A DNA stretch of 64,000 nt. It comes from Ginglymostoma cirratum (lineage: Eukaryota). The DNA lies in the NCBI GenBank assembly GCA_024137785.1, contig JAHRHZ010000126.1:4159691-4223690 (forward strand). The letters are read 5' to 3'. Positions 42,001-57,000 of the stretch are shown in pieces; positions within the stretch are counted from its first letter, which is position 1; each line of letters starts with the position of its first letter. The position numbers were made by a program.

Positions 42001-45000
42001 TTACTGCGGAATCACTAAATATCCAGCAGGCAAACTGTCGCACTTTGGCACTTGTGGCCGCCGTGCCTGCGCCTATAGTTTAGAAAACAAGAAACAGATT
42101 AAATCGTGTGAAATCGCTCGGATTTGAGATGAGATTGATCACGGGACGTCGGCTGCCAAGAATCCGCGTTTTTTGCGGAAAGTGTTATAAAATTGCTGTT
42201 CTCTGGTACATTTTAAGTCCAGCTGAAGGTTAGACATAGATCAGCAAAGCAATTTCGCCACGCACAAAGACAGAATTATAGATTCGACTTAAAACCATTT
42301 CTTCAATTCGTACACCCTATATATATTAATTAAAACTGTGTTGATTGTTGTCTGTTTTTACTGAAATGCACATTGGAAATATATAAAACAGATCGAACAA
42401 AGGACCCTGTATGTTCACTGCTTGATTGTTTGCAAATTCAAATGACCGCGTTCTTCATGAACCATTCGCCAATGAAGTAGAGAAATAAATGCAACGTTAC
42501 CTATCTGGGTCTGTTTCTGAACCTGGGGTGTTAATTTCCTTTTTTTTTGCCCTGGTTGTCCCTTTCCATATCCAGATCCTGAATTTTCATAGTGCTGAAA
42601 TTTTAACTATTGTAGTAACATTTGCTTTCGTATGTGACAGAATTACATTGATTCTGACAGGAATCCTTGTGCAACTCTCTCCAGGTAAACTATTGACCGG
42701 CGGCATTATGGATTCCAACTGCCGTAAACACTGCGTCGAATTGTGTGAGTAAAAATATTTTCCTCCTCCTAAAAGATGTAGTCGGTTAATATTTTCTTGA
42801 CGAAACTTTAAACTATGCATAACTGACACGTAGTGAAACTGAGTTTAGACATAATTCATTCCGGCGTAAGGCCACTAGAGCTCATTTCTCCTTGATTCAT
42901 CGTCTGACACTGCCATCCACAGAAAGTCTTTCACTTCGGTCATTGTCGATAAAAATATATATTAGGAAGCAAATATCAGCTGTAATCAAGGACGCTCGTG
43001 TCCCCGAATCAACATAAATACTGATGCAATTCTTAATGGAAAGAACAAAAAGAAAACCTTAAGACAAATACAACATTATAGAAAGTAACAAATGCATACT
43101 TTTGCAGTAAATGCCGACAAGATGTTTTAAAGAACATTGATTTAAGAGTCGGGCTTGTGAAATTCTACAAAACACCAAGAACTGTTTAGTGGGGACGCCT
43201 GCTGATGATGTCACGGCTGACATGAGTGAAGTGGGCAGCAAGGGACAGTGCAGGAGCTGGTTGTGGCAGAAGGAAGAGGTCATTAACTCCAGGACTGAGA
43301 ACTGAATGAATAGACGTCCTACATTTTTATTCTTCTTACAAACTTGAAGATTCACTCCTTCTGCGCCCAGCTGGAATTGCGCAATGACTTCAGAAGGAGC
43401 GAATGGCATACAGGCAGGCCAGAATATGTGACATTGCAATACGTAGAAAAGTGAATGCTCTTTTAAAATCGAATATGTTCACACTTTTTTAACATCACCC
43501 CATAAGAATAATTCGACACAAACATTTGCCTTTAAAAAAATGCAGTTTCAATAAGTCAATGCAGAAAACATAGCAAAATGAAAGGTTATTGTTTAAACAT
43601 TACATTTCTCTATCTCTAAATCTATCAGTGTACTTTCTTAATCTTACATCAGCGCCGCCTGCCCAAACTGTTAGCTATTATCTGAATTATGTAAGAACCT
43701 TGCAGCAAATATTAAAAATATGTTTTGCGAGGACTGATTGACCCTCACGCTTTCTGATGGATTTTAAATTGTAAAACATGACAATCTAAGAGAGGGCGTT
43801 GACGAGACTCAACGGATCTAGACGAGGTAATGTTTGAAATCGTCGAGAACCACAAGGCCTAACAGAACTTTCTTATTGCATTTTATGTACCTATCTGACA
43901 ATTAACAGATGATGTGAGCTTCGTTTATCTGTTTCCCTCTCAGCCTCGCAGCCCTCTGCTGTGGAATATTTATTTGCGAAAGACACAGAAATGCGAAAGT
44001 CTGAATTAAGTTCGGTAACTGAAGCTGGAAACAGTAGAAAAGACAGCAAATTCCTGAGGCATCACCTGGATTCGCATGGTAGGCAAAACAAAGCCGTCTA
44101 CTGTATATTAAAATCTCCGACTCTAAAGTCTTGAAATATTTTCGTCATCCATCGGATAATGATGTGGATATTACTGTTCACTGCTTTAAACCTTGCAATA
44201 GAATTCCACTACATCTTCTAACCAAGCCAGAAGTAATCCTTACATCACTTACTCTAATCTTTGTGTTAGAGCGGCCTCTACTGTACAAAAGGCAAAGTGT
44301 ATCATTATTGAATAGGTTCCGTTTGCCATGAGAACCCCTCGTTTCTATGTTCCTTACAAGCAACAAATTCAATGCAATTTAAATAAGTCAATTTGACAAA
44401 TATATTTTTCCTGTTTTTGAGTAATTTATATTTGACTCAGCAGTAAATCCGTTCATAAAACAGCAAAAAATCAAATATTGAATATTATTTCTGTTTGTCT
44501 GCTTTTTTAAAAGACAAATTCTTGTACATTTACCTACTTTAAAAGGTGGAAATAATCTGTAAACATGTATTTTTATAAGTTAAAGCAGTACACGTCCGTA
44601 TGGGTACAAGCTGTGCTATACGGAAAAAATACTTAATTTTTGTATTCATGTTTTGAAACAAAACGCTGGGCTGAAGAAAATTCGTCGACTTTACAAAAGC
44701 TTTTTGTTTTCGTCAAGTAAAATGGCTTTCTTCATCTCACGTTAATACTTCTTTATGCGCTGCGGTTTATTGGGTGTGGATGTGGCAACTGGGCATTATC
44801 CCATAATCTGCAAAAATACGTTTAACCCGATTACCTTTTAGGTTTAAGACATAAAGCTATGCGAGTAAATTCGTTTCTGCGCTCTGGCTCAACGTTTTAA
44901 ACTGAAAGTTTCGTTAGTGTACGGAACAGTTTTTATTTTATTGGCAACTGTTGGAGTATAATACACTATTAGTTACCGTTTGACCTAAATTTACCAGATT

Positions 45001-54000: not shown

Positions 54001-57000
54001 GGTACTTTCGTAAAGTTGAATACTGTTTCTCCTTAGCGCCTACCTTTCTCAGGTGGGTAAAGTGCTATTTATTTAACTCCCAATGAAAAAAGTGGGGAAG
54101 TCACTGCCCTTTTGCTTTTGCCCACAGAAAAAGAAAAAAATCAGCAAAGTAAAAATGATGACACGAATACAGACGATCCGTCAAAGAAAAAGAGACAAAG
54201 GCGCCAGAGGACACATTTTACCAGCCAGCAGCTACAAGAACTGGAGGCAACTTTCCAGAGAAATCGCTACCCAGACATGTCGACCAGGGAAGAGATTGCA
54301 GTTTGGACCAATTTAACTGAAGCTCGAGTACGGGTAGGTTAATTTACAGTACTGTCCCATTGTATTCCCTTAGTTATTAGCAAACAAATTACTGTATTTT
54401 ACATCCTCTATCATTTTTGAAGAGGAAATCTGAACCAAACTTCTTGTCACAGTACAATCCTTACTAAAGTTGTGCGCATTGATCACTTTCCATGAATTAT
54501 AGACTCCGCAATAGTTTGTCACAATCAAATCCTTCCGTCATCCCTTGATAGCATCCATTAAATAGGGAGATAGGCAAATATCTTGTAATATTGCTTAGTA
54601 CAAAAAATCCCATGTAATGTCCTTTCGAAATGAAAGCGCGATGTTTATTTTACACTAAAATACAATGCCAGTTGCTAATTTGACATTAGTTTGTCGGTGT
54701 AGAACACCAGTTGTGTAAACAAAGTCGGGTAACAGGCCATTGTGATATTTGTCTGACTTCACATCCCAATACACAACTGTCTCTGCGGCTGCGGAGACTC
54801 CCTGTGCTGAATGTGGATTCCAAGGACTGTGGAAAAGAAAGGGTTTTCTTTATGTTTGACCTGGTTCATTAGGTTCCAATTAACTCCTTCACGGGGATGG
54901 ATGGATAGCTAGATAGATAGATAGATTGAAAGATAGGTAGAGAAAAAAGTTATTTGTGCAAAGTAGCTCACAATCATTTATGATACGCACCTCTGTAGAA
55001 ATCCGTGAATTTCGCGTGTCAGCGGGGAATCCTTATTAACGAAGTGACGCTGGAATTCCTGTATATGTGACAGCGAAACAGGTAATGTATTGCGCAGTTG
55101 GTCATTTGGCTATAGCATATAAAACAAAAGCAGACCCCATGTGTGTTTCTAAGTAGTGTGTTGGACTACGGTCAGTTCCGAATACATTCACAACGGTGTC
55201 TTTTTTCTAAGTTCTATCTTGGAAAGGGCACAGCACTGAAGACTAATGTGTTTTCCATTTGGCGTATGTTTCCGAGCGCATTAATGCATCATTCGACACA
55301 GAGCGAATGGAATTTTAGCTGTTACTTTCGCAGTGTACTTTCTGTTCTTGCTACGCTTATGTCTAAATTATTAATCTGCAAGCCCTTTCAAATGACAAAC
55401 AGTGTGAGAAACAGCAGGCCCTGGGATCACAGCATTCATAATCGATTGTATCGCAATCAGAGTTTAAACAGATTCAAGCAATTATTTCAGCTCACCATGT
55501 TTTGGACTCGTGTATGTCACACTGCTTAGTTTACTCCCACAGCGTGTTCCTCCCCAAGGATAAAACACACTAAAGGACCCGTTTCACAATACAATGTCTG
55601 GTAGCTTTTTTCGCCCCATTTCCTGATCCTGTATGCTTCCTGCAAGTGGATATTTTGGTAAACTTGGCCATATTAGTACTGTCTTCTTAATAACCCGCCT
55701 GAAATCTCTGATAAATGGTCAGGTGAAGGTGTTACTGAAGAACATCAGACTGAAATCGCTGGTTTATTCATTCGGCGATTAAATACCCCACCATCATTCA
55801 TGGTGTAGTTTATATTTGCAGAAGTTGTGTTTCCTATTTAAGTGCTCAATGGGTTAGTTGTGAGGCGTATTTGCATTAAGTACCGATTACATTTTTAAAT
55901 ATCCGTTAGACCAAATGTTTGTGACTTCCCTCACTGATTGAGAAACCACAGATCTAGCTGACTGATTTATTAGCCCCCAGAAGGATAAACTATGTTCGCT
56001 GCCGAAGTGGGAAAAGTAATTGGACCCAGTTCATGTGCGCTTTATCTTAATATATAAATGCACCCGGCTTATTTAGATCAGTAGTTCCGAATCCTCACTT
56101 TCTTTGCAAGTTTCTGAAAGCATTGCTTGTTGTTTTCTCCTCAGGTCTGGTTTAAAAACCGCAGGGCCAAGTGGAGGAAGAGGGAGCGCAACCAACAGGC
56201 GGAACTTTGCAAGAGCGGCTTTGGTCCTCAGTTCAATGGCCTGATGCAACCCTACGATGACATGTACACGGGCTATTCCTACAACAACTGGGCCGCCAAA
56301 GGCTTGACATCGGCTTCGCTCTCCACCAAGAGCTTTCCTTTCTTCAACTCAATGAACGTGAACCCTCTCTCCTCTCAGGCCATGTTCTCCTCTCCCAATT
56401 CCATCTCCTCCATGAGCATGTCATCTAGCATGGTCCCTTCTGCAGTGACCGGTGTCCCAGGCTCTGGCCTCAACAGTCTCAATAACTTGAACAACCTAAG
56501 CAGCCCGTCCCTGAACTCCGCCGTCCCATCAGCAACCTGCCCCTACGCTCCGCCAACCCCGCCCTACGTCTATAGAGACACTTGCAATTCCAGCTTGGCC
56601 AGCCTTAGACTCAAAGCCAAGCAGCATTCAAGTTTCGGATACGCCAGTGTTCAGAACCCAGCGTCTAACTTGAGCGCCTGCCAGTATGCTGTAGACAGGC
56701 CTGTGTGAGGAATCAGATGCAACTTCTCAGACTGATGAACTCTAAGAAATAATTTAAAATAGAATGGGCACTACCGACGAAACCACTGAACCTGTGTAGC
56801 TAACCCCACAGAACCGCCTTTCCCATTTAAGGGAATAGCGCAAGCATTATTTCCTCCCTTGACACCCTGTTTGCAAATATTTTTCATCAGATAAAGGGAC
56901 GCTTGACCGTTAAAAGAAATATTCTCGACTATTTGACTGGATATCACCTTTATTAATACACTATATAAGCTTGTTATTTTTAAGTTCAGCATTGTGATAA

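What the first reader, a model, noticed from the sequence alone, without database searches (positions are those of the whole stretch)
42708..54133. The Pitx2a splice creates a junction-encoded stop codon, so only b and c isoforms look translatable
Seen: the a/b start exon ends in phase 1 on T (42744, then GTGAGT) and the homeodomain exon begins AA (54128), so direct joining gives T+AA = TAA after only 12 codons. The next AG (54132-54133) also gives TAA. Including the b exon gives TCC and GAA at the junctions and an open 313-aa frame; the c exon also gives GAA. Known: in mammals this exon ends in G and Pitx2a is a functional isoform, also reported in zebrafish and chick. Inference: here exon skipping makes a nonsense transcript (stop ~200 nt upstream of the last junction, an NMD candidate), so the b exon is obligatory or acts as an on/off switch. 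Reinitiation at the in-frame ATG 54277 would give a homeodomain-truncated, PITX2D-like product.
Basis: partly seen in the sequence, partly recalled or inferred. Interest (0 to 1): 0.8.

Follow-up and report, generated by a model that had tools for sequence, protein, structure and literature searches.

The report
Shark PITX2 cannot encode isoform a
In this shark's PITX2 gene, skipping the small 'b' exon would place a stop codon exactly on the splice junction, so the short 'a' form of this developmental regulator known from mammals cannot be made in the usual way; this is a modest evolutionary curiosity, not a new mechanism.

Summary
The window carries a shark PITX2 locus on the + strand. The a/b start exon ends on T at 42744, in phase 1, before GTGAGT. 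The homeodomain (HD) exon begins AA at 54128. A direct a-type join therefore reads TAA, and so does the next AG acceptor. Joins through the b exon read TCC and GAA, and the c exon join reads GAA. By arithmetic the b-type frame is 313 aa.

The T is unlikely to be a sequencing error. All 10 database entries that cover this region, from four other galeomorph sharks in three orders, have Ser at this junction. The bichir has Gly. None of the 11 shark entries listed is a-type.

Most likely the b exon is obligatory in sharks and a canonical PITX2A protein is not encoded. The on/off switch, NMD and reinitiation ideas have no support from the data here. Two out-of-frame ATGs lie before the proposed restart codon. 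Upstream in-frame ATGs also make the "12 codons" figure conditional.

I could reach no transcript data and no DNA from other cartilaginous fishes. Interest is modest: the locus is a lineage variant of a well-known isoform system.

The parts
37596..37748 (+). Alternative far-upstream 5' exon region of a/b-type transcripts
   Evidence: tblastn: residues 3-55 of the S. torazame model P0005 match here at 66%.
39186..39279 (+). Alternative 5' exon region, as in Cetorhinus isoform X2
   Evidence: tblastn of the P0009 N-terminus, weak, E = 0.002.
39954..40046 (+). Alternative 5' exon region, as in Chiloscyllium isoforms X2-X4
   Evidence: tblastn of P0002, P0003, P0007 and P0008 N-termini, 81-86%.
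42129..42228 (+). Upstream exon with an ATG at 42129. It ends on G before GTTAGA and joins 42685 in frame (GGT).
   Evidence: Matches the N-termini of the NCBI X1 models of Chiloscyllium (79%) and Cetorhinus (76%).
42685..42744 (+). a/b start exon (mammalian exon 2 equivalent). ATG at 42708, 12 codons, last base T in phase 1.
   Evidence: The peptide MDSNCRKHCVEL is identical in all 10 shark entries that cover it.
42745..42750 (+). Donor GTGAGT of the a/b start exon
   Evidence: It is the best of the 7 open GT/GC donor candidates in or just after the exon by match to the consensus (judged by eye).
43944..44078 (+). b exon, 135 nt, phase 1 in and phase 1 out
   Evidence: It is 86-91% identical to the b region of shark PITX2 proteins. 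The acceptor has a pyrimidine-rich tract and the donor is GTAGGC.
43981..43982 (+). Internal AG 39 nt into the b exon. Its use would give T+AC = TAC, in frame (b2-like).
   Evidence: Mouse Pitx2b2 uses an acceptor at the same offset (PMC2330153, passages).
53240..53423 (+). Coding part of the c exon, ending on G in phase 1 before GTAAGG
   Evidence: 82-91% identical to shark c-type entries.
54128..54333 (+). Homeodomain exon, 206 nt. It begins AA, so the virtual a-type codon is T(42744)+AA = TAA.
   Evidence: Pfam Homeodomain E = 1.5e-15. 97-100% identical to shark PITX2.
54155..54160 (+). Two out-of-frame ATGs (54155 and 54158) ahead of the in-frame ATG. Their ORF ends at 54314.
54277..54279 (+).
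56145..56708 (+). Last coding exon, with the rest of the homeodomain, the OAR motif and the stop TGA
   Evidence: Pfam OAR E = 3e-9. 97-99.5% identical to shark PITX2.

Best explanation
This is the PITX2 gene of a galeomorph shark, closest to orectolobiform entries. It has the usual two-promoter layout: upstream 5' exons, the a/b start exon and the b exon, then a separate c exon, then the shared homeodomain and C-terminal exons. In this lineage the a/b start exon ends on T, not on the G inferred for bony vertebrates. Joining it directly to the homeodomain exon, which must start AA to give the conserved Glu, therefore creates TAA. Transcripts from the a/b promoter can encode a full-length protein only if they include the b exon. 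The canonical PITX2A isoform is not encodable. Shown here: the sequence states, the junction codons, and the shared Ser in other sharks. Inferred: the b exon is in effect constitutive in sharks, so a G-to-T state at the exon end was tolerated because no a-type reading frame was under selection. Under this reading the junction stop is a by-product and not a device.
For: Junction codons are TCC, GAA, GAA and TAA. The b exon search returned 4 proteins among 5 candidates, all shark PITX2. The cluster lists add up to 11 shark entries. Ten of them cover the a/b N-terminus and all 10 read ...HCVEL-S-SQ. They come from Chiloscyllium punctatum (5 entries), Cetorhinus maximus (2), Scyliorhinus canicula (1) and S. 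torazame (2). The eleventh (P0011, Rhincodon) lacks that region. None of the 11 is a-type. These species belong to three orders of Galeomorphii. One S. torazame entry also carries a GenBank protein accession; that it derives from a cDNA is my recollection. The bichir b-type protein has Gly at the junction. The b exon acceptor has a strong pyrimidine tract and lies only 1.2 kb downstream, whereas the homeodomain exon is 11.4 kb away. Of the donor and acceptor combinations scanned, the only frame-restoring ones use sites with poor consensus. The repertoire also varies elsewhere: only a and c are reported in zebrafish (PMC6023614, passages).
Against: I saw no transcript data, so exon skipping may still occur. 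In mouse pituitary, removal of exon 3 is described as the preferred event (PMC2330153, passages). Only proteins were available for the other sharks. Their Ser could in principle be an A|GY codon, which would give Lys and not a stop. A protein database cannot show nonsense isoforms, so the absence of a-type entries is weak evidence. Rays, skates, squalomorph sharks, chimaeras and lampreys were not reached, so the direction of change is unknown. The mammalian G is recalled and was not tested here.
Confidence: 0.7

Rival explanations
1. Regulated unproductive splicing. The b exon is skipped in some tissues or stages, the TAA-bearing transcript is degraded by NMD, and inclusion versus skipping tunes PITX2 dosage from the a/b promoter.
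For: The stop lies 204 nt upstream of the last exon junction, so the position rule for NMD is met. Exon 3 is an alternative exon in mouse and human (PMC2330153, passages). The T state is kept in at least five sharks.
Against: There is no evidence that skipping happens. Conservation of T is equally explained by Ser being an acceptable residue in a constitutive exon context. Flanking-intron conservation, the usual mark of regulated exons, could not be examined.
Confidence: 0.12
2. An a-like protein is still made through other splice sites. One route is the internal donor after 42723 (C|GTAAAC) joined to 54128, giving CAA. Another is donor 42744 joined to AG-preceded starts at 54101 (TTC) or 54173 (TAC).
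For: These combinations are in frame and free of stops.
Against: The donor at 42723 lacks both the -1 G and the +5 G. The AG sites before 54101 and 54173 follow purine-rich stretches without a pyrimidine tract (judged by eye; no scoring model was run). No database entry shows such a product among the 11 listed.
Confidence: 0.05
3. Skipped transcripts are translated by reinitiation at ATG 54277, giving a homeodomain-truncated, possibly interfering product.
For: ATG 54277 is in frame, with A at -3. The preceding reading frame is short (13 codons from 42708).
Against: Two out-of-frame ATGs at 54155 and 54158 open an ORF that runs past 54277 to 54314. With the upstream in-frame ATGs the first ORF is longer, 53 codons from 42129. 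The described PITX2D arises by a different route.
Confidence: 0.03
4. Base 42744 is a sequencing error or a rare allele.
For: None found. It is a single base.
Against: Ser at the junction occurs in 10 of 10 covering entries from four other species and independent assemblies. The window has no N.
Confidence: 0.02

Closest known systems
Mammalian PITX2 A/B/C isoform system (PMC2330153, passages read)
   Same: The exon layout is the same: upstream exons, an a/b start exon, a small alternative exon (138 bp in mammals, 135 bp here), a c exon with its own promoter, and shared homeodomain and C-terminal exons. An AG 39 nt into the small exon sits at the same offset as the mouse b2 acceptor.
   Different: Here the skip junction reads TAA, so the A form has no open frame. 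In mouse pituitary the A form is described as the preferred product.
Zebrafish pitx2 (PMC6023614, passages read)
   Same: A vertebrate lineage with only two of the three isoforms reported.
   Different: Zebrafish is reported to have a and c. These sharks can encode b and c.
Amphioxus and tunicate Pitx a/b and c isoforms (PMC8377849, passages read)
   Same: Two promoters give two N-termini on a shared homeodomain.
   Different: No a versus b splice choice is described there. That paper calls the three vertebrate isoforms 'highly conserved', and this locus does not fit that for a.
Alternative splicing coupled to NMD (general knowledge, recalled)
   Same: A splice choice that creates a premature stop well upstream of the last junction.
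   Different: Neither the splice event nor the decay has been shown here. The stop arises from a split codon and not from a poison exon or a frameshift.

Membership tests
PITX2 orthologue (PITX family, paired-like homeobox) | Homeodomain | tested here: met
   Pfam PF00046 on the HD exon alone, E = 1.5e-15. It continues into the last exon ([10 protein letters not shown]...).
PITX2 orthologue (PITX family, paired-like homeobox) | C-terminal OAR motif | tested here: met
   Pfam PF03826 on the last exon, E = 3e-9.
PITX2 orthologue (PITX family, paired-like homeobox) | Lys at homeodomain position 50 (bicoid class; the numbering is recalled) | tested here: met
   WFKNRR is read directly in the last exon.
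PITX2 orthologue (PITX family, paired-like homeobox) | Orthology to PITX2, not PITX1 or PITX3 | tested here: met
   The b exon hits only entries named pituitary homeobox 2 or unnamed shark models (4 of 4). The HD and last exons are 97-100% identical to shark PITX2. No tree was built.
Three-isoform PITX2 system (a, b, c) | Open b-type frame through the small exon | tested here: met
   Junctions read TCC and GAA. There are no stops in the exons. 313 aa by arithmetic.
Three-isoform PITX2 system (a, b, c) | Open c-type frame from its own first exon | tested here: met
   The junction reads GAA.
Three-isoform PITX2 system (a, b, c) | Open a-type frame when the small exon is skipped | tested here: not met
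   TAA at the junction, and TAA again at the next AG.
Splicing-coupled NMD switch | Premature stop more than about 50 nt upstream of the last exon junction | tested here: met
   204 nt.
Splicing-coupled NMD switch | The alternative junction is seen in transcripts | not testable with these tools
   No shark transcript or read collection could be reached.
Splicing-coupled NMD switch | The transcript is stabilised when NMD is blocked | not testable with these tools
   This needs an experiment.
PITX2D-like truncated product | c promoter plus a cryptic acceptor inside the homeodomain exon (PMC2330153) | not tested
PITX2D-like truncated product | The first ATG met after the stop is the in-frame one | tested here: not met
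   ATGs at 54155 and 54158 are out of frame and come before 54277.

The most novel reading that the evidence does not exclude
In galeomorph sharks, and perhaps in all elasmobranchs, the split-codon stop turns inclusion of the b exon into a binary gate on protein output from the a/b promoter. Regulated skipping plus NMD would then set the dose of a dosage-sensitive developmental regulator. It would also show that a/b splicing is not a pan-vertebrate trait, and it could date the origin or loss of PITX2A.
Probability: 0.1. Interest if true: 0.55.

Novelty: new variant of a known kind. Interest (0 to 1): 0.3.

Why it matters
PITX2 isoforms are often treated as three conserved vertebrate products (for example PMC8377849). 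This locus shows that one of them has no reading frame in at least one shark. Shared Ser at the junction suggests the same for sharks of three orders. Together with zebrafish, where only a and c are reported, this suggests the a/b splice choice is evolutionarily labile, so functions assigned to PITX2A in mammals need not be ancestral. It also bears on annotation and experiments: probes, morpholinos or knock-outs for 'Pitx2a' in sharks would have no protein target. The effect is one base in one gene, and the mechanism, if any, is of a known type.

Tried and rejected
1. Reaching rays, chimaeras and other vertebrates through proteins. The b exon alone returned 4 hits among 5 candidates. The N-terminal region of the catshark protein returned 5 among 200. 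A profile of five N-termini returned the same 5 among 1198. Only the bichir was added.
2. Exhaustive profile search of the representatives library. It found 23518 proteins at E <= 0.001 and listed 150. The only listed hit already known to be b-type is P0002. The library has no names, and I fetched none of the others because some may be human. It added nothing.
3. Look-up of whether an N-truncated entry starting at the in-frame Met is on record for three sharks.
4. Literature on shark or cartilaginous-fish Pitx2 isoforms and on Pitx2a with NMD. Judged from the search listings only, nothing relevant; no paper from those five listings was opened for this question. The four papers read in passages do not address it either. 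The library lacks most subscription papers.
5. A dated shark phylogeny in PMC3692497. No passage on these orders, so I give no divergence time.
6. Stop-codon readthrough. I considered it and set it aside without a test, because TAA followed by A is recalled as an efficient terminator.
7. No splice-site scoring model was available, so site strength is judged by eye against the consensus.
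Full report
**What is in the window**

The + strand from about 37.6 kb to 56.7 kb carries a PITX2 gene. I treated it exon by exon. I did not build or search the joined model; lengths are by arithmetic.
- The homeodomain (HD) exon alone matches Pfam Homeodomain (E = 1.5e-15), and the last exon matches the OAR motif (E = 3e-9).
- The 44-residue b exon found four proteins among five candidates. 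All are shark PITX2 entries, at 86-91% identity.
- A local tblastn of 13 named shark and bichir proteins against the window places every exon: the a/b start exon at 42685-42744, the b exon at 43944-44078, the c exon at 53240-53423, the HD exon at 54128-54333 and the last exon at 56145-56708.
- The HD and last exons are 97-100% identical to shark PITX2. The closest entries are orectolobiform (Chiloscyllium, Rhincodon).
- The contig is therefore a shark's, not human. The window has no N.

**The observation**

It is correct base for base.
- ATG 42708 opens 12 codons (MDSNCRKHCVEL), followed by a lone T at 42744 before GTGAGT.
- The HD exon starts AA at 54128 after a pyrimidine-rich tract and AG.
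- The junction codons are TCC (a/b to b), GAA (b to HD), GAA (c to HD) and TAA (a/b to HD). The next AG, with an exon start at 54134, also gives TAA.
- The b-type frame is 12+1+44+1+68+187 = 313 aa.
- The HD exon ends at 54333, so the TAA would sit 204 nt upstream of the last junction.

**A correction to the '12 codons' figure**

The reading frame is open upstream of ATG 42708, back to the exon's acceptor at 42685. An upstream exon with an ATG at 42129 ends on G at 42228 and joins in frame (GGT). NCBI's X1 models of Chiloscyllium and Cetorhinus start at the equivalent ATG. Three further alternative 5' exon regions map at 37.6, 39.2 and 40.0 kb. The start codon used in vivo is unknown. The TAA closes the frame whichever start is used.

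**Is the T real?**

Cluster listings give 11 shark entries. Ten of them cover the a/b N-terminus:

| Species | Entries |
|---|---|
| Chiloscyllium punctatum | 5 |
| Cetorhinus maximus | 2 |
| Scyliorhinus canicula | 1 |
| S. torazame | 2 |

- All ten read ...HCVEL-S-SQ, that is, Ser at the junction as in the window's T|CC.
- The eleventh entry (Rhincodon) lacks the region.
- The species belong to three orders of Galeomorphii.
- In all of them the next junction residue is Glu, so the HD exon starts AA or AG. A T-ending exon would then give TAA or TAG.
- Caveat: I had proteins only. An A|GY Ser codon would give Lys and not a stop.
- The one bony-fish b-type entry reached, from the bichir, has Gly at the junction. 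That fits a G-ending exon there.
- That mammals have G is recalled and was not tested here.

**Other ways to keep the frame**

I scanned every open GT or GC donor in and just after the start exon against every AG from 53800 to 54260. Three stop-free, in-frame combinations seemed worth weighing; one search also lists others through AGs deeper inside the HD exon:
- the donor after 42723 (C|GTAAAC) joined to 54128, giving CAA;
- donor 42744 joined to an exon start at 54101, giving TTC;
- donor 42744 joined to an exon start at 54173, giving TAC.

The first lacks both the -1 G and the +5 G. The other two follow purine-rich stretches. I judged strength by eye because no scoring model was available.

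**What it most likely means**

A full-length protein from the a/b promoter needs the b exon, and the canonical A form has no frame. Four lines point to a constitutive b exon:
- no a-type entry among the 11 shark entries;
- a strong b exon acceptor only 1.2 kb downstream, against 11.4 kb to the HD exon;
- fixation of a state that would be lethal to an a-type frame;
- b exon conservation (86-91%) in the same range as the c exon (82-91%).

Against this reading:
- a protein database cannot display nonsense isoforms;
- in mouse pituitary, removal of exon 3 is described as the preferred event (PMC2330153, passages);
- no transcripts were available.

I put 0.7 on 'obligatory b exon, junction stop as a by-product'. 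I put 0.12 on a regulated skip-and-decay switch.

**The reinitiation idea**

ATG 54277 is in frame. However, ATGs at 54155 and 54158 are out of frame and open an ORF that runs to 54314, past 54277. Human PITX2D is described as a c-promoter transcript that uses a cryptic acceptor in exon 5, so the analogy is loose. This remains unchecked.

**Comparison with what is known**

- Mouse, chick and frog are said to have a, b and c, and zebrafish only a and c (PMC6023614, passages).
- Amphioxus and tunicates have an a/b-type and a c-type from two promoters, and that paper calls the three vertebrate isoforms highly conserved (PMC8377849, passages).
- A shark lineage that can encode only b and c is thus a new variant of a known system.
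- Judged from the listings alone, searches for shark or cartilaginous-fish Pitx2 isoforms and for Pitx2a with NMD showed nothing on this point. Most subscription papers are outside the library, and supplements were closed.

**Limits**

- Rays, skates, squalomorph sharks, chimaeras and lampreys were not reached, so the direction of change is unknown.
- No eukaryotic DNA collection was available.
- The unnamed top hits were not fetched because they might be human.

Noticed in passing
window 37596-37748, 39186-39279, 39954-40046, 42129-42228: There are four alternative 5' exon regions for a/b-type transcripts. Database models of other sharks start at in-frame ATGs in them. Between species the encoded extensions are 66-86% identical to the window's in the stronger matches (one weak piece 42%), far below the coding exons, so they may be untranslated leader and not protein.
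   Followed up: partly
window 43981-43982: An AG 39 nt into the b exon would give an in-frame TAC junction. Mouse Pitx2b2 uses an internal acceptor at the same 39-nt offset (PMC2330153). The next AG, with an exon start at 43989, would again give TAA.
   Followed up: partly
window 53240-53335: The first ATG of the c exon has T at -3 and A at +4, a weak context. The in-frame ATG at codon 31 sits in ACCATGG, a strong context. This mirrors the leaky-scanning arrangement described for mammalian PITX2C long and short forms (PMC2330153).
   Followed up: no
window 1-64000, boundary near 32000; dip at 46001-48000: CpG observed/expected is 0.12-0.28 up to 32 kb and 0.65-0.87 from 32 kb to the end, at low G+C (about 0.35-0.44). 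It falls back to 0.20 at 46-48 kb inside the long intron. This looks like a large unmethylated domain over the gene with a methylated insert.
   Followed up: no
window 54642-54819: Three of the window's 33 matches to a FoxH1-like motif (recalled) fall within 178 bp of the last intron. The mouse left-side enhancer of Pitx2 is recalled to lie in that intron.
   Followed up: no
window 42723-42729: The conserved Cys-Arg-Lys codons contain GTAAAC. Used as a donor it would restore the frame with the homeodomain exon (CAA). It is a weak site.
   Followed up: partly
window 2153-2996, 16174-16674, 20560-23072: Long ORFs that look by eye like retrotransposon remnants lie in the CpG-poor upstream half. 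They were not scanned against any family library.
   Followed up: no
window 44079-44105: The first bases of the intron after the b exon stay readable as GRQNK.., as in a run-on Chiloscyllium model (P0002). The start of that intron is therefore conserved between the two sharks.
   Followed up: no
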